This document shows positions 13,835 to 41,894 of a stretch of DNA of 64,000 bases, one piece after another (the first letter of the stretch is position 1; each line of letters begins with the position of its first letter). The notes under the pieces were generated by a model. It did no database searches. It saw only the letters and a list, made by a program, of their open reading frames with translations, and had not been told where the DNA came from. This DNA comes from a phage: the sequence record PZ445430.1. The stretch is one strand, 5' to 3'. The position numbers and the translations under genes are program-made.

Positions 13835-13863
13835 ATTATATCAAGATTTTGAGCATCCTGCAA
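13835..13863 (-). promoter_or_regulatory. sigma70-type promoter (minus strand) heading a 490 bp ORF-free region
   Basis: Minus strand reads TTGCAG, 17 bp, TATAAT. Confidence 0.5.
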
Positions 13864-13954
13864 GTAAAATTTTTCCGAAGGTGCTATCAGTGTCCTTGAG
13901 CACAGAGAAAACCGAGTCATTTTGACTCGGTAATCAGGATTGAGCTAATGAAAA

Positions 13955-30482: not shown

Positions 30483-30862
30483 TAATTTAAAAGACTAGTA
30501 AATCGGTAGACGAAAGCCCAAGCATCTTACCTCGCAGCAGCGGTTGAAATACGAGGTTAAATAAGACCGCTGACCATACTATAAAGTATAATCTATTGGA
30601 GATTATGTTTATTACACCAGCCTCTTAAGCTGAACTGTAAAAACGGTCGTTGGTAGTACCAACACAACTTCAAAGATCAACGCTCAAGTATGAAAGCTGA
30701 AAAGTTAAAAGAACTCAAACTTCTAACCTTCTAAAGCTAAAAGATGCAAAGTATTCGTTGATGATTCAAACCCTAGATCAAAGGTACATGGCTCATAAGA
30801 TATGGCCTGTGGCGCCTCTAGGCTGTTTATCGGTTCACTAGTCTCTCAATTTAAAAATGTAT

Positions 30863-30891
30863 TTGCTAATTAGTTTAGTTTTCTATATAAT
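30863..30891 (+). promoter_or_regulatory. sigma70-type promoter
   Basis: TTGCTA, 17 bp, TATAAT. Confidence 0.55.
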
Positions 30892-30921
30892 ATATTTTTA
30901 AATTGATGAGACGAGGCTATT

Positions 30922-31762: not shown

Positions 31763-31933
31763 ATGAAATCAGTTGTAATTATTGGTGTTAATACCCGTGG
31801 TATCCGTACTACGAAAACAGTTAAAACTACTAACGTTGCTGAAATTACTACAAACCCTAAGAAGTTTGATTTCGCCAAAGTCTCGGCAGTTATGACAGAA
31901 CAATCTTTTAACCAAGTACTGGGAATTAAATAA
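31763..31933 (+). CDS. small hypothetical protein (56 aa)
   Basis: ATG after promoter 31703-31731 and GAGAGGAAG RBS; below the ORF-track cutoff. Confidence 0.35.
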   Translation: MKSVVIIGVNTRGIRTTKTVKTTNVAEITTNPKKFDFAKVSAVMTEQSFNQVLGIK

Positions 31934-32376
31934 TGGAAGAAAATATTCTAAATGTTTTGCGTAGGGCTTTGCAGGAATCTAAGATTGATGGCTCTGATAA
32001 AGAGGTAGCTAAAAGCTACCAGACCATAATCGAAGATCTTCAGCGTGTTGATAAAGACTTCATTACTTCTGAACAGTTTGTGTCTTATCTCAAAGCTCAG
32101 CTGAAAAGCATTAATCAGACGAAAGCTAAACTTCATGGTCAAGACCTTGATAATTATAGCTTGCAGTCTGCTCAGTATGAATATATACTGAACAAATGGC
32201 TACAACAGTATCTGCCGCCTCAGCTTTCTGATTCTGAGATTCGCAAATACTTTGCAGAATTAGTTACGTTGAACCCTGGGATTACGAAGAGTATGCTGAT
32301 GAAAGCGATTAAGGAAGAATTCCCTGGTCGTTATGACGGTGGCATCGCTGCTCAGGTTGCTGGCGAATTTAACTAA
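31933..32376 (+). CDS. GatB/YqeY-domain protein
   Basis: 147 aa; QYLPPQLSDSEI and C-terminal GRYDGGIAAQV match the YqeY family pattern. Confidence 0.5.
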   Translation: MEENILNVLRRALQESKIDGSDKEVAKSYQTIIEDLQRVDKDFITSEQFVSYLKAQLKSINQTKAKLHGQDLDNYSLQSAQYEYILNKWLQQYLPPQLSDSEIRKYFAELVTLNPGITKSMLMKAIKEEFPGRYDGGIAAQVAGEFN

Positions 32377-32384
32377 AAATTGAT

Positions 32385-32413
32385 TTGCTAAACGCTTCAA
32401 AATTCTGTATAAT
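32385..32413 (+). promoter_or_regulatory. sigma70-type promoter heading the ORF-free 850 nt region
   Basis: TTGCTA, 17 bp, TATAAT, then the usual CATAAATTAGAGAACAG leader but no start codon. Confidence 0.6.
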
Positions 32414-32419
32414 AGATTC

Positions 32420-33272
32420 ATAAATTAGAGAACAGCGAGCCGATTACGCTGAGTGAGTTTAGTGATTCCTACTAGGATAGCTACTCCACTGAATAGAGTC
32501 GGTGAGTTGGAGACTAGTAAGTACTCTGAGAGAGGCTACGAGCTAACGCTTATTGCTATTGATAGGGAACTGAAAATCTGCGGAAAACTCGGGAGCTGTC
32601 CCGAAATCTCGTAAACTCTTCTCTAGTTTATGTTAGTGGGGTGTCGAACTGACTTATGTGATAACACTGCCGTCCTAGTATAAACGGTAATATCAAACCG
32701 TAACTGGTGGAAGATGCAGGTTCGAATCCTGCGGTCGGAAAGAATCAGATAACTCGGGCTTATACCGGATAAGCATTCGCTGCTGTAGTACATACTATGA
32801 CGGTTCAGGAGGTACGCCTCCTGATCAGTATTAGGTTAGAATCGAAACAGCTAAACCACGAGGAAACCTGACGGCCTCAACCAAACTCGGAACTCGGGAT
32901 CACTGCCTAGTGTGTACCCCGTTTAACCTGAGACTAGGCATCCAGCTTCGCATCGAAAATCGGAGGTGCGATTCTAACAGACCGCGTGAATATGAGAGTG
33001 GGAAACGCTGACATGAGAGATGTCACTAATGGTGCCCAATAGTACAGGTAATTCGCGATAATTCCTGTTGAGCGGCAGCAGTAGGCTGGGAGTCATGACC
33101 TAAGCCTAACCGAGTTCTTCACATACGGAGAACATAACCACAAAGTCACCCTGACTTAAACTGGAAGATATTGTCTGACGGAAGGGCTGCAGAGCTTAAT
33201 CTGAGGGGGCTGACCCTACCTACCGTCGGGTATCTTTAAGAGCTTTTATAAGAGTTCTTAAAAATACCTAAA
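32420..33272 (+). ncRNA. candidate large structured non-coding RNA (about 850 nt, promoter-driven, ORF-free)
   Basis: Promoter 32385-32413; no ORF of 60 aa or more on either strand; GC-richer than flanks; many local hairpins (e.g. GGAGGTACGCCTCC, CGGGAGCTGTCCCG); ends at tRNA-Arg. Confidence 0.35.
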
Positions 33273-33347
33273 CGGGGTGTAGTCTAAGGGATAGGCAGGA
33301 GTCTTCTAAATTCCTTTATGCAGGTTCGAATCCTGTCACCTCGGCCA
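33273..33347 (+). tRNA. tRNA-Arg (anticodon TCT)
   Basis: Cloverleaf by hand: acceptor CGGGGTG/CACCTCG, anticodon loop CTTCTAA, T-arm GCAGG-TTCGAAT-CCTGT, encoded CCA. Confidence 0.75.
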
Positions 33348-33373
33348 ATTTTATTAACTGCTAGGAAAATAAA

Positions 33374-33574
33374 GTGAAAACACGATATATAGTAAAAGTA
33401 GTAGGTGAACATTCACAAGTAAATACCACCGATGTTACAGCGCTAGCATTTGAAGTAGTCTCCGGTATAGTCATATTTCATAACGGAGATATCAAAGCTC
33501 CTGAATTTGCTGTGGATGCTAGCCTGTTTATTTCTGCAACTAAAGTAACTGTAGTAGCTAACTCTTCTAAATAA
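33374..33574 (+). CDS. small hypothetical protein
   Basis: 66 aa, GTG start after AGGA. Confidence 0.35.
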   Translation: MKTRYIVKVVGEHSQVNTTDVTALAFEVVSGIVIFHNGDIKAPEFAVDASLFISATKVTVVANSSK

Positions 33575-33585
33575 TAAGGAAATAT

Positions 33586-34530
33586 ATGTTTACTAAAAAC
33601 ACTAAAGAACTGACTTCCGATCAAAAAGTAATTCGTACTATTAAACGTTGGGGCGTTGGTGCTGTAGTTGGTCTTGGCGCTCTTATTCTGGCTCTCAATT
33701 CCTATACAGTTGTTCAGGACGGTACGGTTAAAACTCAGACTTTCCTGGGTAAAGTTAGTCCTAATCCTGTATTGCCGGGGTTCCATATTGTCAACCCATT
33801 CGCCTCTTTTGATACTTTTAGTACGAAAGATATTTCTATGAAACTGGATAAACTTCAGGTTCCTAGCCAGGATAAGTTTAAGTCCACTGTTGACATTACC
33901 GTTATGTTGCAGTTTGATGGTGCTAAAGCTCCTATGAACCGTGTTAACGCAGGTACTCAGGATCAAGCTCTGAACAAGTACGTTGAAGAGAAGATGCTAT
34001 CTACTATTCGTGAGTTTGGTAAGTCTGTACCAAAAGCACAAGATCTGTTCGACGCTAAGATTCAGGCTCAACTGCAAACTGCTATTCAGCAAGAAGTAGA
34101 AGAGTACGCGCGTCCTTATGGTTACACGGTTAAGCAAGTATTCCTTCAGGATATTACTCTGCCACCTGTAATCATGGAACAGGTACAAAACACAAAAGTT
34201 CGTGAAGAACAAGTTAACGCCGCTAAAGCTGAATTGGCTCGTGTTGAACAAGAAGCACAGCAGAAAGTTAAGCAAGCTGAAGCTGATCGTTCTGCTCGTG
34301 AAAACATGGCAGTAGCTAACGAACGTGACGCAGATGCTAAACTGTACGCAGCTAAGAAAGAAGCTGAAGCTAACGCCGCGCTGCAACGTACCATTACTCC
34401 TGAAATGATTCGTTGGAAGCAGCTGGAAGTTGAAATGCTTCGTGCTGAAAAATACCAAGGTGGTGTACCGCAGACTATTGTTGGTACTGGCTACGATGGT
34501 CAAATGATCATGGATATGCGTAACAAGTAA
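33586..34530 (+). CDS. SPFH/band-7 (HflC/prohibitin-like) membrane protein
   Basis: 314 aa; N-terminal TM helix WGVGAVVGLGALILALN; long Ala/Glu/Gln-rich coiled coil typical of SPFH proteins. Confidence 0.6.
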   Translation: MFTKNTKELTSDQKVIRTIKRWGVGAVVGLGALILALNSYTVVQDGTVKTQTFLGKVSPNPVLPGFHIVNPFASFDTFSTKDISMKLDKLQVPSQDKFKSTVDITVMLQFDGAKAPMNRVNAGTQDQALNKYVEEKMLSTIREFGKSVPKAQDLFDAKIQAQLQTAIQQEVEEYARPYGYTVKQVFLQDITLPPVIMEQVQNTKVREEQVNAAKAELARVEQEAQQKVKQAEADRSARENMAVANERDADAKLYAAKKEAEANAALQRTITPEMIRWKQLEVEMLRAEKYQGGVPQTIVGTGYDGQMIMDMRNK

Positions 34531-34553
34531 TAGTTACACGTAATCTTCGAACC

Positions 34554-34592
34554 AAGCCCGCGTTTCCTCCGAGAGCGCGGGCTTTTCTGTAT
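34554..34592 (+). terminator. intrinsic terminator after the SPFH gene
   Basis: AAGCCCGCG...CGCGGGCTT hairpin then TTCTGTATTT. Confidence 0.65.
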
Positions 34593-34742
34593 TTAAGGCA
34601 AAAGAAAAGCCCATAAGTTATTCAACTAAGGTCTTTAGTATTTAATTCTTTAATTCTTTAGAATCATATACTATTATTGTAGCAACAACGTGCTACCACT
34701 AAATGCCTTGAGATTTTTCCACTAAAAAGTTTAAAAATTCGA

Positions 34743-34771
34743 TTGCTTGAACGCTAAATTCTCTGTATAAT
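34743..34771 (+). promoter_or_regulatory. sigma70-type promoter for nadR-pnuC
   Basis: TTGCTT, 17 bp, TATAAT. Confidence 0.6.
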
Positions 34772-34801
34772 ATATTTATAAATTTGAGAGAGGAATCAAA
34801 T

Positions 34802-35857
34802 ATGATTAAGACTGGTCTAGTAATTGGTAAGTTCGCGCCATTAACGCGTGGTCATATTAACCTAATAAACACAGCAGCAACTATGTGTGAACGAGTTATT
34901 GTTGTAGTTAGTCATGATAATCGTTGGCTGGATAAGCAGAACACACGTGATCAGGAAGTATTACAGTTAAAGAATCGACTTCGTTGGTTAGAACAAACTT
35001 ACGCGGATATTGAGCACATTTCGGTAGAGTACATTATTGAAGATGATATTCCTGAATATCCGAATGGTTGGCCGGAATATGCTAGAATCCTTAATGAAAA
35101 TTACGGACATTTGCCTGAGATCACCGTTTTCTCTAGCGAACTAGACTATGATGCAGAATATAAGAAATATCTGCCGAAGTTTGGTCATTATATTGTAGAT
35201 TCTGATCGGACTCGTGTTCCAATCTCAGCTACAATGATTCGTAATGATCTTATGAAGTATTGGGAGTTTCTTCCTAGCGTAGTTCGTAAAGATTACGTGC
35301 GTAAGGTTGTAATCATTGGGACTGAAAGCTCGGGAAAGACTACTTTAACAAAATACCTTGCGAAGCTATACAACACTTCGTGGGTAGAAGAATATGGCCG
35401 AACGTATTGTGAAGTTGATCTAGTTGGTAACGAAAATCTACTTACCAGTGAAGATTACAGTAAAATTGCGTTCAGACACAAAGAGCTAGAGTTTGAGGCA
35501 GAACGTACTGCAAATAAGATCATGTTTGTAGACACAAATGCTTTTATTACTGAGTTCTACCACAGACTTTATGAACATCGTAAGAATCCTGTGGTTACAG
35601 CAATTGCAAAAGAAGAACATTACGATTTAGTAATTGTTCTAGCGCCTACTGTTAAGTGGGTAGATGATGGTTTACGTATTAACTCCGATCGTTCAATTAC
35701 TTCTGAACTGTTCGAGCAGATGAAGAAAGAATTTCCAAATCAGTTCCCTGAAGGGCGTACTGTTTACATCGACTCCCCGGACTACAAAGTTCGTATGGAC
35801 GAAGCAGTAAACGCAGTAGACTGGCTGATTCATCACTTTAACGTTGGAGAGTTTTAA
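34802..35857 (+). CDS. nadR: NadR-like bifunctional NMN adenylyltransferase / ribosylnicotinamide kinase
   Basis: Nucleotidyltransferase motif GKFAPLTRGH at the N-terminus; second-domain P-loop GTESSGKTTL; start at 34802 after promoter 34743-34771. Confidence 0.65.
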   Translation: MIKTGLVIGKFAPLTRGHINLINTAATMCERVIVVVSHDNRWLDKQNTRDQEVLQLKNRLRWLEQTYADIEHISVEYIIEDDIPEYPNGWPEYARILNENYGHLPEITVFSSELDYDAEYKKYLPKFGHYIVDSDRTRVPISATMIRNDLMKYWEFLPSVVRKDYVRKVVIIGTESSGKTTLTKYLAKLYNTSWVEEYGRTYCEVDLVGNENLLTSEDYSKIAFRHKELEFEAERTANKIMFVDTNAFITEFYHRLYEHRKNPVVTAIAKEEHYDLVIVLAPTVKWVDDGLRINSDRSITSELFEQMKKEFPNQFPEGRTVYIDSPDYKVRMDEAVNAVDWLIHHFNVGEF

Positions 35858-35858
35858 T

Positions 35859-36536
35859 ATGACTAACTATCTTGTAAATGACTTTAAAAACTGGAAACCT
35901 TTGGAATATCTGTGGCTGTTTATAGCAGTCGCCTTTATTAGTTTAGCAAACTATAATGGTACAGCTCTAGATTGGGCTACTGCAATAACCAATGTGGTTT
36001 GTGTTATTCTGGTTGCAAAAGGACGTGTTTCCAACTATATTTGGGGCTTAGTGGGTGTTCTTACATATGGTATTACAGCTTTAAACGCAGATCTTTATGG
36101 TAACGCTGCACTAAACCTGCTATACTACGTTCCTATGCAGTTTTATGGAATGTACTTATGGCATAAAAATAAGCCAAGTAATCTGCCAGATGTTCCAACT
36201 AAGTTTCTGACTAAAGCCCAAGCTCTGCTGACTCTAGGGATTCTAGCAGTAGCCACGTTAGGGTATGGTAGTTTCTTAGCTACTACAGCTGATCCATTCC
36301 CAATGCTCGATGCATTTACTGCGGTTGGTAGTGTGATCGCTATGTGGCTTATGGTTAAGCAGTATGCCGAGCAGTGGCTGATCTGGATTGCTATTAACAT
36401 TGGTACTGTGTACATTTGGCTTGTAACTGCTCAATCTACAGGTGCATCTTATGCAATCCTAGCAATGTGGCTAGTATTCTTAGGTAACTCTATTATGGGA
36501 GCCTATAAAGGATACTTTGTACGCGTTAACAAATAA
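35859..36536 (+). CDS. pnuC: PnuC-like nicotinamide riboside transporter
   Basis: About 225 aa polytopic membrane protein, Trp/Tyr-rich helices, directly coupled to the nadR stop. Confidence 0.6.
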   Translation: MTNYLVNDFKNWKPLEYLWLFIAVAFISLANYNGTALDWATAITNVVCVILVAKGRVSNYIWGLVGVLTYGITALNADLYGNAALNLLYYVPMQFYGMYLWHKNKPSNLPDVPTKFLTKAQALLTLGILAVATLGYGSFLATTADPFPMLDAFTAVGSVIAMWLMVKQYAEQWLIWIAINIGTVYIWLVTAQSTGASYAILAMWLVFLGNSIMGAYKGYFVRVNK

Positions 36537-36543
36537 AGTAGTT

Positions 36544-36570
36544 ATAGCCCTCGCTTAGAGGGCTATTATA
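36544..36570 (+). terminator. hairpin after pnuC
   Basis: ATAGCCCTC-GCTTA-GAGGGCTAT. Confidence 0.45.
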
Positions 36571-36583
36571 CAGAAATTTTCAC

Positions 36584-36612
36584 TTGCTTAATATAGAAAA
36601 TTTCTGTATAAT
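36584..36612 (+). promoter_or_regulatory. sigma70-type promoter
   Basis: TTGCTT, 17 bp, TATAAT. Confidence 0.6.
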
Positions 36613-36642
36613 ATATTTATAAATTCGAGAGAGGAATCAAAC

Positions 36643-36939
36643 ATGAAACGCATTGTACTTGCATTGACTCTAGTATCTACTTCTGTATTTGCTGCTCCGC
36701 AACAGGAACTTTGTCAAGTTCAGGTTTGTAATAAGCTAGAACGATTTACTCTAAACATTTGGTCCCATATTAAAGATAATATGGGTGAACAGTGTTTTGA
36801 TATTGTTCTGCCAAAAGAACAGGCTATTCCTGGTGCTGTTCTTAGCTCAGAATCACGTTGGTGGCAGGGTTCTTCTATCAATCCAACTAAGAAGTCAGTG
36901 ACACGTATCAAACAAGTATATCAGTGCAAGGTTCAGTAA
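36643..36939 (+). CDS. small secreted hypothetical protein
   Basis: Signal peptide MKRIVLALTLVSTSVFAAP; four Cys. Confidence 0.5.
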   Translation: MKRIVLALTLVSTSVFAAPQQELCQVQVCNKLERFTLNIWSHIKDNMGEQCFDIVLPKEQAIPGAVLSSESRWWQGSSINPTKKSVTRIKQVYQCKVQ

Positions 36940-36947
36940 AATTTCAC

Positions 36948-36976
36948 TTGCTTAATGTCGAAATTTTCTGTATAAT
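36948..36976 (+). promoter_or_regulatory. sigma70-type promoter driving a tRNA transcript
   Basis: TTGCTT, 17 bp, TATAAT; tRNA-Ser begins about 15 nt after the -10. Confidence 0.6.
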
Positions 36977-36990
36977 ATATTCATAAATTC

Positions 36991-37084
36991 GGAAGATTAA
37001 CCCTAATGGTAAGGGAGCTGTTTGCTAAACAGCCAGTAGCTGTGGAGACACGGTGTGCCAGTTCGAATCTGGCATCTTCCTCCA
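36991..37084 (+). tRNA. tRNA-Ser (anticodon GCT), class II
   Basis: Acceptor GGAAGAT/ATCTTCC, anticodon stem GCTGT/ACAGC with loop TTGCTAA, long variable arm, T-loop TTCGAAT, CCA; starts about 8 nt after promoter 36948-36976. Confidence 0.7.
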
Positions 37085-37089
37085 GATTT

Positions 37090-37167
37090 GGTTCTCAAGC
37101 TCATTTGGTATGAGCCGTCGCCTCATAAGCGAAAGGTAGGTAGGTTCGAATCCTCCGGGAGCCACCA
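37090..37167 (+). tRNA. tRNA with CAT anticodon (Met/fMet or Ile2)
   Basis: Acceptor GGTTCTC/GGGAGCC, anticodon loop CTCATAA, T-loop TTCGAAT, CCA. Confidence 0.6.
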
Positions 37168-37184
37168 ATTAATTAGGAGACTAT

Positions 37185-37370
37185 ATGTCACGCTTTCGAG
37201 AAATTGCTCAAGAGCTAGAAGAATGTATGTGTACTGAATGTTGGGGTTCTGGCACTCAAAATGATGCTGAACCTGGGGACATTTTCTATAACGAATGGGA
37301 ATGTCCTACCTGTAAAGGTTCTGGCATTAACCCTAATTATGCAATTTCTTTTGATATTGAGCGAGGCTAA
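37185..37370 (+). CDS. small zinc-ribbon-like protein
   Basis: 61 aa; CxxC pairs CTECWGSG and CPTCKGSG. Confidence 0.5.
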   Translation: MSRFREIAQELEECMCTECWGSGTQNDAEPGDIFYNEWECPTCKGSGINPNYAISFDIERG

Positions 37371-37371
37371 A

Positions 37372-37710
37372 ATGGATATTTTTACAACTCCGGCAGTCAA
37401 CCTTTTAGGTGTAGGTCTGTTCCAAGCTACCATCTATCGTATTGATGATACCACAGATGTAGTAACGTTCATTGTACCAGAGTTCTTCCTAGAAAAGTTC
37501 TTTGAAGAGTTTGAGCAGTTTCGTGAAGAACACAATGCTCATTCCGATATGGAAGATCTAGCAGCTATGTTCCCTGCGGTTTACGGCTATATCTTTGAAG
37601 GTAATGGCCTAGATCTTAATAAATCTGAACTCGTTGAACTTAACTGGGGCATCAATTTTGAAGTTGGCTCTCCATTCCCTCGATATTTCCAGGGTTTAGA
37701 GATTCGCTAA
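37372..37710 (+). CDS. hypothetical protein
   Basis: 112 aa from the ATG overlapping the upstream stop. Confidence 0.45.
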   Translation: MDIFTTPAVNLLGVGLFQATIYRIDDTTDVVTFIVPEFFLEKFFEEFEQFREEHNAHSDMEDLAAMFPAVYGYIFEGNGLDLNKSELVELNWGINFEVGSPFPRYFQGLEIR

Positions 37711-37718
37711 GATTACAT

Positions 37719-37795
37719 GGGGGTGTAATCGAATTGGCATAGGTACTGGACTTAAAATTCAGGTTTTGTGGGTTCGAATCCCACCACCCCTACCA
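37719..37795 (+). tRNA. tRNA, anticodon loop CTTAAAA (TAA, Leu-type codon UUA) with class I architecture
   Basis: Acceptor GGGGGTG/CACCCCT, T-arm GTGGG-TTCGAAT-CCCAC, discriminator A, CCA; short variable loop is unusual for Leu. Confidence 0.5.
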
Positions 37796-37810
37796 AATTA
37801 AGGAAATAAA

Positions 37811-37954
37811 ATGAAAGCTATTAAGAAAGCACTGCGTAAATTTATGTACTGTCGTTTTCATAGCATCAAGGCTTCAACTAATGGTACGACTTACGATCGC
37901 TATGATCCTAAGTTTGGCTTACACTCTAAACAACTGGAGAAAACAAATGGCTAA
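37811..37954 (+). CDS. small hypothetical protein (47 aa)
   Basis: ATG after TAAGGA RBS; overlaps the next ORF. Confidence 0.25.
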   Translation: MKAIKKALRKFMYCRFHSIKASTNGTTYDRYDPKFGLHSKQLEKTNG

Positions 37955-38153
37955 TCCTGAAATTACGGCACAACGCTTTATGCTGAAAGGAATTATTGCT
38001 GAAGCAGGCATGACAGAAGAAGTTGCAGATTTTCAAAAGCAATTCCTCAATATTCTCACTCAAGCCAAAGAGCTAGGAGAGAAAGAACATGGCGCGGCTA
38101 TTATGGCAATCACATTGGTTGGGCTTGATCTGGCTGAAGAATCAGGAGTTTAA
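37948..38153 (+). CDS. small hypothetical protein
   Basis: 68 aa from the ATG after GGAGAAAA. Confidence 0.4.
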
Positions 38154-38183
38154 CTCCTCCAAGCAGAAATTTTAAAAATGTAC

Positions 38184-38213
38184 TTGCTTTTTACTTAAGA
38201 TTTCTGCTATAAT
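38184..38213 (+). promoter_or_regulatory. sigma70-type promoter
   Basis: TTGCTT, 18 bp, TATAAT. Confidence 0.5.
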
Positions 38214-38242
38214 AGTTATATAAGTTGATGAGAGGAATCAGA

Positions 38243-38515
38243 ATGTTAAAACGTTTTGCAGCAACTGGTATTGAAAGCTCAGTATGTAAATCCTGGGGTG
38301 GTTGGGAAGGTGAGATCGAGTGGCTTTATTTCTACAATGTAGAACTTCTTCCAGAGATCAAAGCTCAATGTATTGAGGCTGGTATGGCTCCTGATGCTAC
38401 GGCTGATGTTGAAATCAGCATGAATAAGCTAGAGGGTCGAGTAGTCACTGTTACTGATGAAGGTGAAGAGGTATTCGAACTTCCATTCACTTTGAAAGTC
38501 ACTCCTGGCTTCTAG
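38243..38515 (+). CDS. hypothetical protein
   Basis: 90 aa after promoter 38184-38213 and GAGAGGAATCAG RBS. Confidence 0.5.
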   Translation: MLKRFAATGIESSVCKSWGGWEGEIEWLYFYNVELLPEIKAQCIEAGMAPDATADVEISMNKLEGRVVTVTDEGEEVFELPFTLKVTPGF

Positions 38516-38553
38516 TAACTGATACAGCACTGAGCAAGTTCTTTAAAATCTTA

Positions 38554-38583
38554 CTTGCTCAGTCCTTCAAAACTTGATATAAT
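38554..38583 (+). promoter_or_regulatory. sigma70-type promoter ahead of the Tyr-Glu-Trp-Phe tRNA block
   Basis: TTGCTC, 18 bp, TATAAT; the -35 sits in inverted repeat CTGAGCAAG / CTTGCTCAG. Confidence 0.45.
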
Positions 38584-38708
38584 AGTTATCTAATTTGGAA
38601 AACATATCTGAATGAGAAGTAACTAAGCGAGTTGCTTTTAGGGGTAAAGTCAGGATAGCCTGAAATATTCCACCTTGAGTTTAACCGACTTACTTTTCAT
38701 TCAAATAT

Positions 38709-38789
38709 GGGGGATTGGCTCAGTGGCGACGGCGCCTGGCTGTAGACCGGGTATATCACGCGGAGGTTCGAGTCCTCCATCTCCCACCA
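38709..38789 (+). tRNA. tRNA-Tyr (anticodon GTA)
   Basis: Acceptor GGGGGAT/ATCTCCC, anticodon stem CCTGG/CCGGG loop CTGTAGA, 10-nt variable region, T-loop TTCGAGT, CCA. Confidence 0.65.
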
Positions 38790-38797
38790 AAATTAAT

Positions 38798-38872
38798 GCA
38801 CCTATCGTCTAATGGTTAGGACATCAGGATTTCAATCTGAGAATCGGAGTTCAATTCTCCGTGGGTGTGCCA
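38798..38872 (+). tRNA. tRNA-Glu (anticodon TTC)
   Basis: Acceptor GCACCTA/TGGGTGT, D-arm GTCT-AATGGTTA-GGAC, anticodon loop ATTTCAA, T-loop TTCAATT, CCA. Confidence 0.7.
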
Positions 38873-38881
38873 ATTAATAAT

Positions 38882-38952
38882 TGGGGTACGCATAGGTTGC
38901 TAGTGGGCCTCCAAAACCCATGAAAAGGTTTCGAATACCTTTACCCCTGCCA
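38882..38952 (+). tRNA. tRNA-Trp (anticodon CCA)
   Basis: Anticodon loop CTCCAAA; T-arm AAGGT-TTCGAAT-ACCTT; 1:72 is an unpaired T:T; CCA. Confidence 0.6.
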
Positions 38953-38958
38953 ATATTT

Positions 38959-39033
38959 GCACCTTTAGCTGAGATGGATTAGCGCTTGCCTGAAGAGCTT
39001 GAGAGGTTCGTTCAATTCGAACAGGGTGCACCA
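38959..39033 (+). tRNA. tRNA-Phe (anticodon GAA), anticodon stem imperfect
   Basis: Acceptor GCACCTT/AGGGTGC, D-arm GCTG...TAGC, loop CTGAAGA at positions 32-38, T-arm GTTCG-TTCAATT-CGAAC, CCA; two T:T mismatches in the anticodon stem. Confidence 0.5.
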
Positions 39034-39050
39034 ATTTGAAGGAGATGCTG

Positions 39051-39323
39051 ATGCATCCTGAAAACTTCTTTATATACTGTACTAGTCTTTTGCTTAAACG
39101 CCGGATTAATAAAGTATATCACTACAGAGCTAGTCAACAGCCTTATGTTTATGATTCTAGTGGAGATCATATTCCACTTGAGCAACTAGGGACTGATTAT
39201 ATGGTTTTGAAGCACTTTAATGAGGCGAAGATCTCTAGCGTTCATAACCGACAAAACTCTAAAACGTGGTGGCATAAGAAGCGTAAGAAAGGCATCAAAT
39301 TTCTTAAAAATGTAGTTGCTTAA
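39051..39323 (+). CDS. hypothetical protein
   Basis: About 90 aa from the ATG after GGAG. Confidence 0.4.
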   Translation: MHPENFFIYCTSLLLKRRINKVYHYRASQQPYVYDSSGDHIPLEQLGTDYMVLKHFNEAKISSVHNRQNSKTWWHKKRKKGIKFLKNVVA

Positions 39324-39344
39324 ATCCTTAAAGTTCTGTATAAT
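39316..39344 (+). promoter_or_regulatory. sigma70-type promoter
   Basis: TTGCTT, 17 bp, TATAAT. Confidence 0.6.
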
Positions 39345-39372
39345 TATTACATAAATTGAACTGGAGAACTAG

Positions 39373-39561
39373 ATGAAAGCACCTAAACCGAAATTAGTTA
39401 AGTTCGACTGCTGTGATACTGAAATCTTATTTACTAAGTTTGGTGAATTTAAGATGTGTGAATGTGGAACATGTGGTTACGATCATGGTGATGGATATTA
39501 TTGCAGAACCCTAGGGCCTTCTGAACTAATCCACTTCTCATGGCCGGAAAGTAAAGAATAA
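39373..39561 (+). CDS. small zinc-ribbon-like protein
   Basis: 62 aa; Cys pairs CCDT...CECGTCG...YCR; promoter 39316-39344. Confidence 0.5.
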   Translation: MKAPKPKLVKFDCCDTEILFTKFGEFKMCECGTCGYDHGDGYYCRTLGPSELIHFSWPESKE

Positions 39562-39563
39562 TA

Positions 39564-39639
39564 CGACCGTTGGCTGAATGGCTTAGGCGGAGGCCTGCAA
39601 AACCTCCTTATGTGAGTTCGAATCTCATGCGGTCGTCCA
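39564..39639 (+). tRNA. tRNA-Cys (anticodon GCA)
   Basis: Acceptor CGACCGT/GCGGTCG, anticodon loop CTGCAAA, T-arm GTGAG-TTCGAAT-CTCAT, discriminator T, CCA. Confidence 0.65.
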
Positions 39640-39781
39640 ATTTGCTGAAAGAATTGTTAAATCAATTCAGGCACGCGTAGGAACACTGCCTCAGTAATTG
39701 AAAGATGAGGCACGGTTTGGAGAGGTATGCCGCTACACGCTACGGTGCTAACTCCGTCTAGGTGAAAATCCTAGTCAGCAA

Positions 39782-39867
39782 TATAAATTTAGGGTCGTTG
39801 GCTGAACGGTTTAAGCGCCGGACTGTTAATCCGTATCCGCAAGGATAAAGTAGGTTCAACTCCTACA
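39782..39867 (+). tRNA. tRNA-Asn-like (anticodon GTT) with an extended variable arm
   Basis: Anticodon arm CGGA-CTGTTAA-TCCG; 15-nt variable region forming hairpin ATCC-GCAA-GGAT; T-arm GTAGG-TTCAACT-CCTAC; CCA. Confidence 0.5.
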
Positions 39868-39904
39868 CGGCCCGCCAATTTCACTAACAACTGAGGAAAT
39901 AGAT

Positions 39905-40090
39905 ATGACAACTCGTGCAATTGCTCTACTAGAAGCTGATCGTGATAATCTGATTAATAATATTAAGGTTCGTGGTAATATTATTAAGGCTCTGAAAGCT
40001 GAACTTCTTGAAGAACTTCAAGGTCAAGTAGAGCGTCGTGAAGCTCTAAAAGAGGTTGAGGAAGCTATCGAAAAACTCAAAACTGAGTAA
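39905..40090 (+). CDS. small hypothetical coiled-coil protein
   Basis: 61 aa. Confidence 0.4.
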   Translation: MTTRAIALLEADRDNLINNIKVRGNIIKALKAELLEELQGQVERREALKEVEEAIEKLKTE

Positions 40091-40099
40091 ACAAATTAT

Positions 40100-40176
40100 G
40101 CGATCGGGGCTGGCTTGGTAATGGTACTCCCCTGTCACGGGAGAGAATGTGGGTTCGAATCCCATCGGTCGCGCCA
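40100..40176 (+). tRNA. tRNA-Asp (anticodon GTC)
   Basis: Acceptor GCGATCG/CGGTCGC, anticodon stem CTCCC/GGGAG loop CTGTCAC, T-arm GTGGG-TTCGAAT-CCCAT, discriminator G, CCA. Confidence 0.7.
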
Positions 40177-40252
40177 ATTTTTGCAGGACGCTGGTATAGA
40201 TAACCACCGCGTGGGAAGTGTCTATATTTAGAGCACTGCAAAACATAATAAT

Positions 40253-40328
40253 ACATCCATAGCTCAATGGTTAGAGCTACCGCCTCTTAAGCGGAGGGTT
40301 CTAGGTTCAAGTCCTAGTGGGTGTACCA
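40253..40328 (+). tRNA. tRNA-Lys (anticodon CTT)
   Basis: Acceptor ACATCCA/TGGGTGT, D-arm GCTC-AATGGTTA-GAGC, anticodon loop CTCTTAA, T-arm CTAGG-TTCAAGT-CCTAG, CCA. Confidence 0.65.
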
Positions 40329-40541
40329 AACATCAGAGCAGCGTGATGTACTGCAAAGACCCAAAGTCCGGGGTGGACTTCTTGATTCAAAGGAGCAGGC
40401 ATTAATTATCATTCTAGCGTGGTGGAGAGGGGACACCAGCTTGCCGAGGGTAGAAGCTCGTTCGATTCGAGTGAAAGAATGGTTCTCGTAAATCCGCACA
40501 AGTGATAGCAGGTTCAAGTCCTGCCTAGATTGACTTATTAT

Positions 40542-40615
40542 GCGTTCGTAGTTAAAAGGTATAATTTTTGGTTGCCAACCAGAAGTTGAGGGTTCGATTC
40601 CCTCCGACCGCACCA
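40542..40615 (+). tRNA. tRNA-Gly (anticodon GCC)
   Basis: Acceptor GCGTTCG/CGACCGC (one mismatch), anticodon stem TTTGG/CCAGA loop TTGCCAA, T-arm GAGGG-TTCGATT-CCCTC, CCA. Confidence 0.6.
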
Positions 40616-40863
40616 AATTTAGGTTTCTGCTTCCTAGAGAACTGACTCCTAGATAAACAAGGCGATGAGTTTCCGGCCGGTTCTAGTCGCTGAAAATCCT
40701 CCCGACCAGGTAGGTGTAAGTAAACGAAAGTTTACTTATTAAGTAAGTCCGACACATCGGCGGGTGTGTTCTAGTACTTAAAGAAGGTCTCGCAAACTTT
40801 CTCGCTAGCATGAGTTCATAGCTCGGTGACTTACCTAATAAGTAAATTTATTAAAAAATGTAG

Positions 40864-40892
40864 TTGCTATTTAGCTTAATTCTCTGTATAAT
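40864..40892 (+). promoter_or_regulatory. sigma70-type promoter driving tRNA-Pro and the adjacent CAT tRNA
   Basis: TTGCTA, 17 bp, TATAAT. Confidence 0.6.
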
Positions 40893-40924
40893 ATATTTTA
40901 TAAAGTGAGTTAACAAAGAATATT

Positions 40925-41002
40925 CTCCGTGTAGCTCAGTTTGGCCAGAGCGTTTCGTTTGGGGCGATAGGGTCGGGGGTTCAAATCCTCCCACGGAGAC
41001 CA
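40925..41002 (+). tRNA. tRNA-Pro (anticodon TGG)
   Basis: Acceptor CTCCGTG/CACGGAG, D-arm GCTC...GAGC, anticodon loop TTTGGGG, T-loop TTCAAAT, CCA; about 30 nt after promoter 40864-40892. Confidence 0.7.
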
Positions 41003-41008
41003 AACAAT

Positions 41009-41086
41009 TGCGGGTTAGATCTCTGGTAGAGATCGCTAGTCTCATAAGCTAGAAAGAGGTAGGTTCGATTCCTACACCCGCTTCCA
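41009..41086 (+). tRNA. tRNA with CAT anticodon (Met/fMet or Ile2)
   Basis: D-arm GATC-TCTGGTAGA-GATC, anticodon stem CTAGT/GCTAG loop CTCATAA, T-arm GTAGG-TTCGATT-CCTAC, CCA; unpaired T1:T72. Confidence 0.65.
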
Positions 41087-41106
41087 ATTTAATAGAAGGA
41101 TTTCGA

Positions 41107-41271
41107 AATGAAATTATTTCGTTTAAAAGTAAGTGATCTACGTTCTAGCAAAGATCGTAAGAAGTATCCACTAGCTCACTATGGTAAAGATGAAAACGAA
41201 GTGATGGCGGAATTTGGTATTAATCATCCTTACTTGAAAGTCTACTCTATTAAAGAAGTATACATGTATTA
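41107..41271 (+). CDS. small hypothetical protein (54 aa)
   Basis: ATG after AAGGA RBS; between two tRNAs; below the ORF-track cutoff. Confidence 0.3.
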
Positions 41272-41274
41272 AAT

Positions 41275-41352
41275 TGACCGTTAACTCAACTGGATAAGAG
41301 TACCGAGCTTTTACCTCGTAGGTTCTGGGTTCGAATCCCAGACGGTCAACCA
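41275..41352 (+). tRNA. tRNA-Lys (anticodon TTT)
   Basis: Acceptor TGACCGT/ACGGTCA, anticodon loop CTTTTAC, T-arm CTGGG-TTCGAAT-CCCAG, CCA. Confidence 0.7.
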
Positions 41353-41369
41353 ATTTAAAGGAATTTGTT

Positions 41370-41687
41370 ATGAATATTAACAAAGTTCTAGAAACAATAT
41401 CAGAAATGTCTGGTAGAGCTGGAAAACGCTTTACTGAACTATGCATTAAAAATCAAAAAGTACCAGAACATCAATGTCATTATTGTCGAGACTGTGAACA
41501 ATACCATGAAATGTGTATGGTTGAAGATTGGGTCTGGGATCAGATAAGAAAAGAGCAACCCAAAGATATTGTTCTATGTTTTACTTGTATGGAACGACGT
41601 TTAGGACGTAAAATTACGCTCAAAGATCTTAAACATGTTCCCTGTAACGCTCCTTACTTCATTGGCTTTAGAATGGAGAGATTTTAA
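41370..41687 (+). CDS. Cys-rich hypothetical protein
   Basis: 105 aa; motifs CHYCRDCEQYHEMC and CFTC. Confidence 0.5.
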   Translation: MNINKVLETISEMSGRAGKRFTELCIKNQKVPEHQCHYCRDCEQYHEMCMVEDWVWDQIRKEQPKDIVLCFTCMERRLGRKITLKDLKHVPCNAPYFIGFRMERF

Positions 41688-41820
41688 TGACTATCTGGTT
41701 TTATTTAATGAAGCAGAAAATAAGAGATTCCTATGTATTCTCTGCTGACTTTACAATAGGTATGTTTATAGCAGGTTTCTGTGAATTTGTAGTTGAAGCC
41801 TACATCATAGGAAGTCTTTT

Positions 41821-41894
41821 GCTCGGTTAGTTTAATGGGAGAACCCCGTCTTTACACGGCGGTTGCGATAGTTCGATTCTATCACCGAGTACCA
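41821..41894 (+). tRNA. tRNA-Val (anticodon TAC)
   Basis: Acceptor GCTCGGT/ACCGAGT, D-arm GTTT-AATGGGA-GAAC, anticodon stem CCGTC/GGCGG loop TTTACAC, T-arm GATAG-TTCGATT-CTATC, CCA. Confidence 0.7.

What the first reader, a model, noticed from the sequence alone, without database searches (positions are those of the whole stretch)
32385..33347. Promoter-driven, ORF-free, hairpin-rich stretch of about 850 nt upstream of tRNA-Arg: candidate large structured RNA
A canonical early promoter (TTGCTA, 17 bp, TATAAT) and the usual CATAAATT leader are followed by no start codon and no ORF of 60 aa or more on either strand until tRNA-Arg at 33273. The interval is GC-richer than neighbouring coding DNA and full of local stems (GGAGGTACGCCTCC, CGGGAGCTGTCCCG, GCCTAGT...ACTAGGC, ACAGG...CCTGT). 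It also holds a perfect T-arm (GCAGG-TTCGAAT-CCTGC at 32716-32732) with no matching acceptor stem. Large ornate RNAs of phages (GOLLD/ROOL class) are known to sit beside tRNA genes, but I cannot assign it to any family from sequence alone.
Basis: partly seen in the sequence, partly recalled or inferred. Interest (0 to 1): 0.8.

Follow-up and report, generated by a model that had tools for sequence, protein, structure and literature searches.

The report
RNAX: large structured T5-phage RNA
The ORF-free stretch is a real non-coding gene, the roughly 850-nt "RNAX" stable RNA of T5-like phages, which folds into a conserved multi-domain structure that includes a tRNA-shaped module and whose function is still unknown.

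Summary
A 10/12 sigma-70 promoter (32385-32413) is followed by about 850 nt with no ORF of 60 aa or more, ending one base before tRNA-Arg(UCU). The interval is GC-richer than its flanks.

It is not an orphan. The homologous interval is annotated in GenBank records of T5, BF23, phage 5 and DT57C as misc_RNA "rnaX / RNAX, stable RNA with unknown functions". The T5 st0 deletion removes it.

I found homologues in every Demerecviridae lineage sampled, 600-1300 nt long. There is no codon periodicity. Base-pair covariation is strong. In the tRNA-like module 97% of cells pair and 16 of 30 pairs carry compensatory changes. In the 3' tail 87% pair and 16 of 38 do.

The RNA is modular:
- a helix that ties up the 5' leader;
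- an optional 5' domain;
- a tRNA-like cloverleaf on a 12-bp stalk, with a non-conserved anticodon arm;
- a variable centre;
- a 3' domain and a near-invariant terminal hairpin.

Rfam 15 matches only the tRNA model (29.3 bits). GOLLD, ROOL, tmRNA and intron models do not match.

Most likely it is released by RNase P at tRNA-Arg and acts in trans as a tRNA-shaped scaffold or decoy. That function is inferred, not shown.

The parts
32385..32413 (+). Early sigma-70 promoter (TTGCTA, 17 nt, TATAAT). It is the homologue of T5 promoter 'P16-17'.
   Evidence: 10/12 match. Annotated as promoter P16-17 in T5 and BF23 records. Conserved in all loci.
32420..33272 (+). RNAX transcript, about 853 nt. The 5' end is inferred: A at 32420 by analogy with T5 N25-type promoters, whereas the GenBank RNAX start corresponds to 32427. 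The 3' end is the base before tRNA-Arg.
   Evidence: Homology to annotated rnaX. No ORF. No codon periodicity. MFE z = -3.5 on the + strand only.
32420..32432 (+). P1 5' strand (leader AUAAAUUAGAGAA). It pairs with 32619-32631.
   Evidence: 13-bp duplex, z = -6.2. A P1 duplex of 7-14 bp is present in all 24 distinct leader/partner combinations. It is kept as a simple hairpin in T5/DT57C, where the 5' domain is absent. It is compensated in L024 (GAUG/CAUC) and AAS21.
32619..32631 (+). P1 3' strand (UUCUCUAGUUUAU), preceded by the conserved CGUAAACUCUUCUC motif (32610-32623).
   Evidence: RNAalifold finds 32427-32/32619-24 with 4 of 6 pairs doubly changed.
32430..32508 (+). 5'-domain core with a candidate H-type pseudoknot. 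Hairpin CAGCG/CGCUG is 32433-37/32447-51. Its loop GCCGAUU (32439-45) pairs with AGUCGGU (32497-32503). A variable hairpin E1 lies between them (32453-32489).
   Evidence: CCGA/UCGG becomes CAGA/UCUG (DU_PP_V, My1, Proteus phage) and CUGA/UCAG (AAS21). CAGCG/CGCUG becomes CAGCA/UGCUG. E1 has 7 unrelated sequence types, and all close with 6-8 terminal pairs.
32509..32618 (+). Variable remainder of the optional 5' domain, including hairpin CGGGAGCUGUCCCG (32590-32603).
   Evidence: The whole 5' domain is absent in T5, DT57C, L011 and L024. In L006, L070 and L077-79 it is replaced by an HNH ORF.
32635..32644 (+). G1 motif AGUGGGGUGU, nearly invariant. It is a long-range pairing partner of an AACCAC motif.
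   Evidence: RNAalifold pairs 32636-44 with 33132-41, 92% of cells paired. GUGG/CCAC becomes ACGG/CCGU in DU_PP_V and My1. The partner assignment (C1 or C2) is ambiguous.
32649..32757 (+). Stalk (32649-62 with 32744-57), then a conserved internal loop (AACACU / AAGA), then the tRNA-like domain.
   Evidence: 12-pair stalk, 98% of cells paired, 7 pairs with compensatory changes. Covariance model R1 scores 176 bits here, and this is the only strong copy in the window.
32669..32740 (+). tRNA-like domain: 7-bp acceptor stem, D arm with GG, perfect T arm, and a degenerate anticodon arm (3 bp plus a 6-nt GUAACU loop). No encoded CCA.
   Evidence: Rfam tRNA 29.3 bits, with 18 nt of the anticodon region left unaligned. 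ARAGORN does not call it in the window. In relatives ARAGORN and other annotators give it assorted anticodons. Acceptor, D and T stems covary.
32758..32774 (+). Hairpin GCUUA-UACCGGA-UAAGC, directly 3' of the stalk.
   Evidence: 5 pairs, 96% of cells paired, three pair types at the apical pair.
32775..32996 (+). Variable central domain. It holds GGAGGUACGCCUCC (32808-21), the C1 motif CUAAACCACG (32851-60), GCCUAGU...ACUAGGC (32905-39) and a conserved block (32943-85).
   Evidence: Replaced by unrelated sequence in T5-type RNAs. The block 32946-88 is 89-93% identical in Klebsiella and Yersinia phages. C1 changes to AAACCGU in DU_PP_V and My1.
32997..33141 (+). 3' domain: G2 motif AGUGGGAAA (32997-33005), GAGAG-loop hairpin (33009-25), ACAGG/CCUGU hairpin (33044-68), near-invariant GGAGUCAUGACC (33089-33100; one change each in L007 and My1) and C2 motif AUAACCAC (33134-41).
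   Evidence: The hairpins are compensated between types, for example UGACAU/AUGUCA, UGGCAU/AUGCCA and UCACAU/AUGUGA.
33144..33272 (+). 3' tail: GUCA-CCC-UGAC hairpin (33144-56), UUAAACUGGAA (33156-66), three-way 'Y' element (33167-33234), terminal 12-bp hairpin (33235-62) and an AAAAAUACCUAAA linker.
   Evidence: Covariance model R2, alignment A5: 87% of cells paired, 16 of 38 pairs with double changes, score 0.233 against 0.144 in shuffles (0/500), slid controls 37-54%. The terminal hairpin is 95% identical even in Pectobacterium phage and is compensated in phage bux.
33273..33347 (+). tRNA-Arg(UCU), with encoded CCA. Its RNase P site would define the 3' end of RNAX.
34554..34584 (+). First intrinsic-terminator-like site downstream. 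This is the likely end of the operon: RNAX, tRNA-Arg, a 66-aa ORF and the Band-7 gene.
   Evidence: It is the homologue of the annotated 'ter1' in T5 and BF23. Band_7 Pfam match, 70 bits.

Best explanation
The interval is the window phage's copy of rnaX, the gene for 'RNAX', a large non-coding stable RNA of T5-like phages (Demerecviridae).

Shown:
- It is non-coding.
- It sits directly behind a conserved early promoter and directly in front of tRNA-Arg(UCU), with no terminator between them.
- It is conserved family-wide, with abundant compensatory base changes.
- It is modular, built of: P1, which ties up the 5' leader; an optional 5' domain with a candidate pseudoknot; a tRNA-like cloverleaf on a 12-bp stalk; a variable centre; a 3' domain with near-invariant single-stranded motifs; and a near-invariant terminal hairpin.

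Inferred:
- The RNA is made as the first part of the early transcript that runs through RNAX, tRNA-Arg and the Band-7 gene.
- RNase P cleavage at the 5' end of tRNA-Arg releases it.
- Base-pairing of both termini (P1 and the terminal hairpin) protects it, which would explain the label 'stable RNA'.

Inferred function, about 30% likely:
- It acts in trans as a tRNA-shaped scaffold or decoy.
- In the tRNA-like module the acceptor stem, T arm and D arm (the tRNA 'elbow') are conserved, but the anticodon arm is not.
- It would therefore engage proteins that read tRNA shape (RNase P, CCA-adding or modification enzymes, tRNA-directed host toxins, or the adjacent phage YqeY-like protein) rather than decode.
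- Being dispensable in the laboratory fits an accessory, host-dependent role like that of the neighbouring tRNA genes.

The confidence given (0.7) is for the identity and the structured, non-coding nature, not for the inferred function.
For: Identity:
- BLAST finds 527 phage records.
- misc_RNA rnaX is annotated at the orthologous place in DT57C (636 nt), T5 (719 nt), BF23 (784 nt) and phage 5.

Non-coding:
- No ORF of 60 aa or more.
- Variable sites fall 184/186/176 by position mod 3, against 49/38/78 in the neighbouring CDS. 105 of 141 indels are not multiples of 3.
- The short ORFs have no Pfam match.

Structure:
- z = -3.5 on the + strand only.
- tRNA-like module: 97% of cells paired, 16 of 30 pairs doubly changed, 0/500 shuffles reach this, slid controls 26-44%.
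- 3' tail: 87% paired, 16 of 38 pairs.
- P1 is present in all 24 variants.
- Variable elements keep their closing helices across 6-7 unrelated sequence types.
- Coordinated GUGG/CCAC to ACGG/CCGU change.
- Many G-U pairs, which would be A-C mismatches on the other strand.

Breadth:
- Tequintavirus, Epseptimavirus, Sugarlandvirus, Eos, Pantoea AAS21, and Pectobacterium DU_PP_V and My1.
- An independent covariance-model hit (67 bits) in Proteus Novosibvirus, inside an 822-nt unannotated gap before tRNA-Arg.

Operon context: no terminator until 34554.

Dispensability: the st0 deletion spans the gene.

Context for the decoy idea: T5 tRNAs rescue infection from tRNA-targeting defences (PMC10644984, read; abstract of PMC10802454, listed).
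Against: - No transcript data were available here. 'Stable RNA' rests on a GenBank note, and I found no paper describing it.
- The 5' end is uncertain: 32420 or 32427.
- The tRNA-like cloverleaf is replaced by a plain hairpin in L003 and L004 and on the Proteus-phage stalk. The 5' domain is missing in T5 and DT57C. No single module except the stalk region and the 3' part is universal.
- The anticodon arm is not conserved, which argues against a decoy for anticodon-loop nucleases specifically.
- The RNA is dispensable in laboratory hosts.
- The YqeY-like neighbour is weak in Pfam (20.6-27.1 bits, cut-off 27) and absent next to the RNA in Sugarlandvirus.
- The 3'-tail alignment was fitted to the structure by the covariance model, which inflates the pair counts somewhat.
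Confidence: 0.7

Rival explanations
1. Cis-acting leader. The structure exists to control or assist expression of what follows. It could be a folding or processing platform for RNase P/RNase E maturation of tRNA-Arg. It could also be a stability or antitermination element for the tRNA-Arg and Band-7 operon. On this reading it has no function once cut off.
For: - It always lies upstream of tRNA-Arg(UCU) in the same transcription unit.
- The best-conserved element is the hairpin nearest the tRNA.
- There is no terminator between the RNA and the tRNA.
- GGUAUC (33229-34) has two mutually exclusive partners, which would suit a switch.
Against: - 600-1300 nt of covarying multi-domain structure is far more than known tRNA leaders need.
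- In many phages a 0.5-kb mobile ORF separates the RNA from tRNA-Arg. The conserved 3' hairpin then stays with the RNA, not with the tRNA.
- The 26 other tRNAs in the window have no such leader.
- The submitters' annotation calls it a stable RNA.
Confidence: 0.2
2. Genomic debris. The stretch would be a decaying pseudo-tRNA plus remnants of dead genes and homing-endonuclease traffic in the dispensable tRNA region, with hairpins arising by chance.
For: - T5 record AY587007 annotates only a pseudo-tRNA here.
- The region is mosaic, with whole segments swapped, deleted or interrupted by HNH and T5orf172 ORFs.
- It is deletable.
Against: - Compensatory changes maintain helices over the whole family.
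- Motifs are near-invariant from Escherichia to Pectobacterium phages.
- Swapped segments preserve their closing helices.
- The fold is strand-specific.
Confidence: 0.04
3. Unrecognised small protein genes, as annotated ('hypothetical protein' x2-4) in SuperGirl, SmurfNell, Seabear and others.
For: - Several deposited genomes call CDSs here.
- The window has ORFs of 53 and 56 aa.
Against: - No third-position bias, and indels that break frames.
- The ORFs are not conserved between phages.
- No Pfam match.
- The 56-aa reverse-strand ORF is simply the complement of the tRNA-like domain.
Confidence: 0.02
4. A divergent member of a described large-RNA class (GOLLD, ROOL, tmRNA, RNase P RNA, group I/II intron, Y RNA).
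For: - Large size, phage origin and tRNA adjacency resemble GOLLD/ROOL (own knowledge).
- The embedded tRNA mimic resembles YrlA and tmRNA (PMC4201824).
Against: - No Rfam 15 match other than tRNA, at E up to 10 and with permissive filters.
- ARAGORN finds no tmRNA.
- The tRNA-like domain of YrlA is circularly permuted, with the long stem in the anticodon position. Here the order is that of a normal tRNA and the stalk extends the acceptor end.
Confidence: 0.03

Closest known systems
RNAX (gene rnaX) of phages T5, BF23, phage 5 and DT57C. GenBank AY734508, AJ604530, AJ604531, KM979354: 'stable RNA with unknown functions'.
   Same: - Same locus: promoter P16-17, then the RNA, then tRNA-Arg(UCU), then the Band-7 gene, then ter1.
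- About 80-82% nucleotide identity over the shared tRNA-like module and 3' domain.
- Both covariance models hit the annotated RNAX.
   Different: - The window RNA is longer (about 853 nt against 636-784).
- It carries the full 5' domain that T5 and DT57C lack.
- Its central domain is of a different type, shared instead with Klebsiella and Yersinia phages.
- In the genome identical to the window (SuperGirl) the region is annotated as hypothetical proteins.
GOLLD and ROOL large ornate RNAs of phages and prophages
   Same: Hundreds of nucleotides of conserved multi-domain structure, phage-borne, often next to or around tRNA genes, function unknown (own knowledge).
   Different: - No covariance-model match.
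- No shared motifs.
- RNAX is found only in Demerecviridae as far as searched.
Bacterial and phage Y RNAs of the YrlA type (tRNA mimics bound by Rsr/Ro60)
   Same: A non-coding RNA in which a long helix carries a domain with tRNA-like D and T arms that is not a decoder. Some are RNase P and CCA-adding substrates (PMC4201824).
   Different: - YrlA is 80-130 nt.
- Its tRNA-like part is permuted: the acceptor-like stem is a closed hairpin and the Ro-binding stem replaces the anticodon arm.
- RNAX keeps the normal tRNA order, and its stalk extends from the acceptor end.
- No rsr gene is known at this locus, and there is no Rfam match.
Stable RNAs of the T4 tRNA cluster (species 1 and 2 / RNA C and D) and tmRNA
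   Same: - T4: RNAs of unknown function co-transcribed with phage tRNAs and matured by the tRNA-processing machinery (own knowledge).
- tmRNA: a tRNA-like domain combined with pseudoknots.
   Different: - The T4 species are about 140 nt and unrelated in sequence.
- The tRNA-like domain of tmRNA is formed by its 5' and 3' ends, and it carries a tag ORF. ARAGORN finds none here.

Membership tests
RNAX (rnaX) of T5-like phages | Located between early promoter P16-17 and tRNA-Arg(UCU), upstream of the Band-7 gene and ter1 | tested here: met
   Promoter 32385-32413, tRNA-Arg 33273, Band_7 ORF 33586-34530, terminator 34554. Same order in the annotated T5, BF23 and DT57C records.
RNAX (rnaX) of T5-like phages | Sequence and structure homology to the annotated RNAX | tested here: met
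   blastn gives about 80-82% identity over roughly half of the query to DT57C and T5. In DT57C's annotated RNAX the R2 match (3' tail, 104 bits) lies inside the feature, and its tRNA-like module aligns in A1, the alignment R1 was built from.
RNAX (rnaX) of T5-like phages | Accumulates as a stable RNA in infected cells | not testable with these tools
   This rests only on the GenBank note 'stable RNA with unknown functions'. I found no paper and no expression data.
GOLLD / ROOL | Match to the family covariance model | tested here: not met
   cmscan of 31800-34000 at E up to 10, and of 32620-32800 with laxer filters, returned no such match. The gathering-threshold scan of the whole window found only tRNAs.
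tRNA (functional decoder) | Cloverleaf scoring above the tRNA model threshold | tested here: inconclusive
   29.3 bits against a gathering score of 29, with 2 non-standard acceptor pairs. ARAGORN does not call it in the window.
tRNA (functional decoder) | Canonical 5-bp anticodon stem with a 7-nt loop and a conserved anticodon | tested here: not met
   - 18 nt are left unaligned by the tRNA model.
- The window has a 3-bp stem and a 6-nt GUAACU loop.
- Relatives have other loops, a 20-nt insertion (Sugarland) or no cloverleaf at all (L003, L004).
- Annotators assign Ser(ACT), Ser(CGA), Leu(TAG), SeC(TCA) or 'OTHER'.
tRNA (functional decoder) | Free acceptor end with a 3' CCA, encoded as in the phage's other tRNAs | tested here: not met
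   The acceptor stem is followed by AAAGAA, not CCA. Both flanks are base-paired in a covarying 12-pair stalk.
tmRNA | tRNA-like domain formed by the 5' and 3' ends, plus a tag-peptide ORF | tested here: not met
   ARAGORN finds no tmRNA. No Rfam tmRNA match.
YrlA-type Y RNA | Permuted tRNA-like domain on a Ro60/Rsr-binding stem, encoded beside rsr | tested here: not met
   The topology differs: normal tRNA order, with the stalk at the acceptor end (against PMC4201824). No Rfam match. The immediate neighbours that were scanned are YqeY-like and Band-7 proteins, not Rsr.
Group I / II intron or other ribozyme | Match to the family model; interrupted host gene | tested here: not met
   No Rfam match. 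The flanking genes are intact.

The most novel reading that the evidence does not exclude
RNAX could be the founding member of a new class of large, modular phage RNAs, comparable in rank to GOLLD or ROOL. Its conserved tRNA-shaped module and near-invariant single-stranded motifs would recruit or sequester a tRNA-recognising host or phage factor early in infection. One example would be blunting tRNA-directed defence or hijacking tRNA processing. It might also assemble into a higher-order particle. The mutually exclusive pairings of GGUAUC (33229-34) would then be a functional switch.
Probability: 0.25. Interest if true: 0.85.

Novelty: new member of a known kind. Interest (0 to 1): 0.58.

Why it matters
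T5 is a classical model phage, yet this 0.6-1.3 kb RNA survives only as a GenBank note. It has no Rfam family, and I could find no structural or functional study of it. In many deposited genomes it is mis-annotated as hypothetical proteins or as odd tRNAs (SeC, 'OTHER').

Three things follow from showing that it is a covariation-supported, family-wide, multi-domain RNA with an embedded tRNA mimic.
- It gives annotators a model to use.
- It adds a tractable E. coli/Salmonella system to the small set of very large bacterial and phage structured RNAs of unknown function.
- It links the RNA to the current question of why phages carry tRNA clusters and how they counter tRNA-targeting immunity. This can be tested directly, because viable deletion mutants (T5 st0) already exist.

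Tried and rejected
- Literature. The terms covered RNAX, T5 stable RNA, DT57C, BF23 tRNA region, T5 RNA-seq, Demerecviridae structured RNA and YrlA. The BF23 genome paper does not mention it.
- Rfam. Only the tRNA model matches.
- Sequence-only alignment of the 3' domain (A2). It was too mosaic, and RNAalifold recovered only the terminal hairpin. I replaced it with covariance-model realignment of the 3' tail. One predicted hairpin (33190-33203) was not supported, with 48% of cells paired.
- YrlA-like architecture. I considered it from memory and rejected it after reading PMC4201824, because the topology is permuted.
- Search for distant relatives:
  - tblastn with the Band-7 protein led to T4-like phages, so it was uninformative.
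  - tblastn with the endolysin gave Aeromonas and Vibrio phages with no RNAX. It also gave one true Novosibvirus locus.
  - An IMG/VR scan with the 3' motif and a metagenome scan with a degenerate T-arm/acceptor pattern returned only close T5-like relatives. Ten of the 22 metagenome hits were RNAX at 150-176 bits.
- Origin of the tRNA-like domain. It is at most 64% identical to any of the 27 tRNAs in the window.
- Partner assignment of the two GUGGG and two AACCAC motifs could not be resolved.
Full report
**1. Observation**

- TTGCTA, 17 nt and TATAAT lie at 32385-32413 (10 of 12 consensus positions), followed by CATAAATTAGAG.
- From there to tRNA-Arg(UCU) at 33273-33347 there is no ORF of 60 aa or more on either strand. 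The longest are 53 aa (+) and 56 aa (-).
- GC rises to 0.44-0.50, against 0.32-0.41 in the flanks.
- All quoted stems and the T arm GCAGGTTCGAATCCTGC (32716-32732) are present.

The + strand RNA (32420-33272) folds to -270.5 kcal/mol, z = -3.5 against dinucleotide shuffles. The reverse strand gives z = -1.1.

One detail is wrong. The T arm does have an acceptor stem. Rfam's tRNA model aligns 32669-32740 end to end at 29.3 bits (gathering score 29), skipping only the anticodon arm.

**2. Identity**

The window is a T5-like phage, 100% identical here to Escherichia phage SuperGirl. blastn finds the interval in 527 phage records.

Four records carry a misc_RNA feature at exactly this place: T5 (AY734508), BF23 (AJ604530), phage 5 (AJ604531) and DT57C (KM979354).
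- It runs from promoter 'P16-17' to the base before tRNA-Arg. It is followed by the Band-7 gene and terminator ter1.
- Another T5 record (AY587007) marks only a pseudo-tRNA.
- Many other genomes call hypothetical proteins, or tRNA-SeC, tRNA-OTHER or tRNA-Ser, here.
- AY734508 also shows that the viable T5 st0 deletion (33667-41891) removes rnaX.

I found no paper that discusses RNAX. Rfam 15 has no family for it.

**3. Not coding**

- Among 13 related RNAs, variable sites fall 184/186/176 on positions mod 3.
- 105 of 141 indels are not multiples of three.
- The adjacent CDS shows the expected 49/38/78.
- The short ORFs differ between phages and have no Pfam match.

**4. Distribution and modularity**

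I collected the locus from:
- 26 IMG/VR T5-likes;
- Klebsiella Sugarlandvirus, Yersinia phiR2-01, Pectobacterium DU_PP_V and My1, phage Eos and Pantoea AAS21;
- a range of Epseptimavirus.

From the inferred start to a conserved 3' motif the RNA measures 602 to 1294 nt.

Conserved blocks alternate with segments that are swapped, expanded or deleted.
- The whole 5' domain is missing in T5 and DT57C.
- Extra domains sit between P1 and the tRNA-like module in several phages.
- The centre exists in at least two unrelated versions.

Mobile endonuclease genes have landed at the two borders.
- An HNH_3 ORF starts at the leader and replaces the 5' domain.
- A T5orf172/MUG113 ORF or a 169-aa ORF sits between the terminal hairpin and tRNA-Arg.

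A covariance model of the tRNA-like module (R1) finds one strong copy in the window (176 bits). It also gives an independent hit (67 bits, E 2e-15) in Proteus phage VTCCBPA139 (Novosibvirus). That hit lies inside an 822-nt unannotated gap in front of tRNA-Arg(UCU) which also contains the 5'-core motifs.

Scans of IMG/VR and of metagenomes found only close T5-like relatives. As far as searched, the family is confined to Demerecviridae.

**5. Structure**

(a) tRNA-like module (32633-32783), 18 sequences.
- RNAalifold predicts a 12-pair stalk (32649-62 with 32744-57) and a conserved internal loop (AACACU/AAGA). It also predicts the acceptor stem and T arm of the tRNA-like domain, and a following hairpin.
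- Counting gives 97% of cells paired and 16 of 30 pairs with changes on both sides. The covariation score is 0.373 against 0.195 in shuffles (0/500). Slid controls give 26-44% paired.
- D, T and acceptor stems covary. The D-loop GG and the T loop are conserved.
- The anticodon arm is short and not conserved.
- In L003, L004 and the Proteus phage the cloverleaf is replaced by a plain hairpin on the same stalk.

(b) P1.
- The leader (32420-32432) pairs with 32619-32631 (13 bp, z = -6.2).
- A P1 duplex of 7-14 bp exists in all 24 distinct variants.
- It persists as a simple hairpin where the 5' domain is deleted, and it is compensated in L024 and AAS21.

(c) 5' core.
- The hairpin CAGCG/CGCUG and the pairing of its loop (GCCGAUU) with AGUCGGU form a candidate H-type pseudoknot.
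- Support comes from C-G to A-U and U-A exchanges in three lineages.

(d) Long-range motifs.
- There are two GUGGG motifs (32635-44 and 32997-33005) and two AACCAC motifs (32851-60 and 33134-41).
- All four change together to ACGG and CCGU in DU_PP_V and My1.
- RNAalifold pairs 32636-44 with 33132-41 (92% paired), but the partner assignment is unresolved.

(e) 3' tail (33139-33271), realigned with covariance model R2.
- 87% of cells paired, 16 of 38 pairs doubly changed, score 0.233 against 0.144 (0/500), slid controls 37-54%.
- The alignment was fitted to the model, so these counts lean towards the structure.
- One small hairpin is not supported.
- The terminal 12-bp hairpin is 99% paired and almost invariant.

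(f) Variable inserts.
- They keep their closing helices across 6-7 unrelated sequence types.
- G-U pairs are frequent, so the constraint acts on the + strand RNA.

**6. Mechanism**

Shown: a conserved early promoter, a structured non-coding RNA, an abutting tRNA gene and no intervening terminator.

Inferred from established tRNA biology:
- RNase P cleavage at tRNA-Arg +1 creates the 3' end of RNAX.
- Pairing of both termini (P1 and the terminal hairpin) would shield it from end-dependent decay, consistent with the 'stable RNA' label.

The tRNA-like module conserves the parts that shape-reading proteins use (acceptor/T-arm stack and D/T elbow) but not the anticodon arm. It is tied into a stalk rather than having free ends. 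It is therefore a mimic, not a decoder.

My best guess, at about 30%, is a trans-acting tRNA-shaped scaffold or decoy for a host or phage tRNA-binding factor.
- Its accessory character (st0) is in keeping with this.
- So is the reported role of T5 tRNAs against tRNA-targeting defences (PMC10644984; abstract of PMC10802454).
- The upstream gene is weakly YqeY-like (20.6-27.1 bits). I treat that as a lead, not as evidence.

The main rival, at about 20%, is a purely cis-acting leader or processing platform for the downstream operon.

**7. Comparison and verdict**

The RNA is a member of the RNAX family by locus and homology. It is not a member of GOLLD, ROOL, tmRNA, intron or YrlA families, each of which failed a tested defining feature. 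It resembles them in being a large phage RNA beside tRNAs, or an RNA that carries a tRNA mimic.

The gene itself is a rediscovery. What appears to be new is the covariation-backed architecture and the family-wide distribution.

Noticed in passing
L006 3488-3970; also L070, L077, L078, L079 (homologous to window 32420-32633): In several Epseptimavirus an HNH_3 homing-endonuclease ORF (160 aa) starts exactly in the RNAX leader (TTCATGAAA). It replaces P1 and the whole 5' domain. The rest of RNAX then becomes the 3' UTR of that ORF.
   Followed up: partly
L004 4333-4842, L028, L074-L076; L007 4286-4852, L030 (insertion point corresponds to window 33271/33273): Two unrelated ORFs are inserted precisely between the RNAX terminal hairpin and tRNA-Arg in different phages. 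One is 169 aa with no Pfam match. The other is about 188 aa with T5orf172/MUG113 domains. Klebsiella phages carry 108-aa and 58-aa ORFs there. The junction looks like a hot spot for mobile genes.
   Followed up: partly
window 31933-32376: The gene just upstream of the RNAX promoter is weakly YqeY-like (23.3 bits, Pfam cut-off 27; 27.1 bits in phiR2-01). Pfam's YqeY domain is related to the tRNA-binding tail of GatB (own knowledge). This neighbour is present in Markadamsvirinae but was not detected next to RNAX in Sugarlandvirus, Pectobacterium or Proteus phages.
   Followed up: partly
window 33229-33234 (GGUAUC), with 33167-33171 or 33263-33268: The invariant GGUAUC can pair either upstream, closing the Y element, or downstream, extending the terminal hairpin. 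Both alternatives show compensating changes in relatives. This could be a conformational switch or a coincidence.
   Followed up: no
window 32714-32731 and 33318-33335: The T-arm region of the tRNA-like domain and that of tRNA-Arg(UCU) share an identical 18-nt run (ATGCAGGTTCGAATCCTG). Overall, the tRNA-like domain is at most 64% identical to any tRNA in the window.
   Followed up: partly
L002 (T5 AY587007), about 2010-2095: T5 itself carries an insertion of about 83 nt in the 3' tail. It is flanked by a duplication of GTCACCTTGAC(T/A)TAAACTGGAA, which is why its RNAX is longer than that of DT57C.
   Followed up: no
window 32430-33272, as annotated in MZ501105, OR896824, MK728824, PQ569719, OQ790079 and others: Many deposited T5-like genomes annotate 2-6 'hypothetical proteins' inside RNAX, or call tRNA-SeC(TCA), tRNA-OTHER, tRNA-Ser or tRNA-Pro there. 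These are probably mis-annotations.
   Followed up: partly
window 33586-34530: The Band-7/SPFH protein downstream of tRNA-Arg is about 81% identical, over residues 38-312, to proteins of T4-like Klebsiella phages (KP15, RB43 group). This suggests exchange between unrelated phage families.
   Followed up: no
L033 2508-2655: Model R1 (stalk plus tRNA-like module) aligns full-length at 42 bits across the genuine tRNA-Arg of DU_PP_V and its flanks. This hints that the tRNA may also be embedded between partly complementary flanks, or that the module derives from such a unit.
   Followed up: no
window 13462-13954 and 30483-30897: These are two further stretches of 415-493 nt without any ORF of 50 aa or more on either strand. 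I did not examine them.
   Followed up: no
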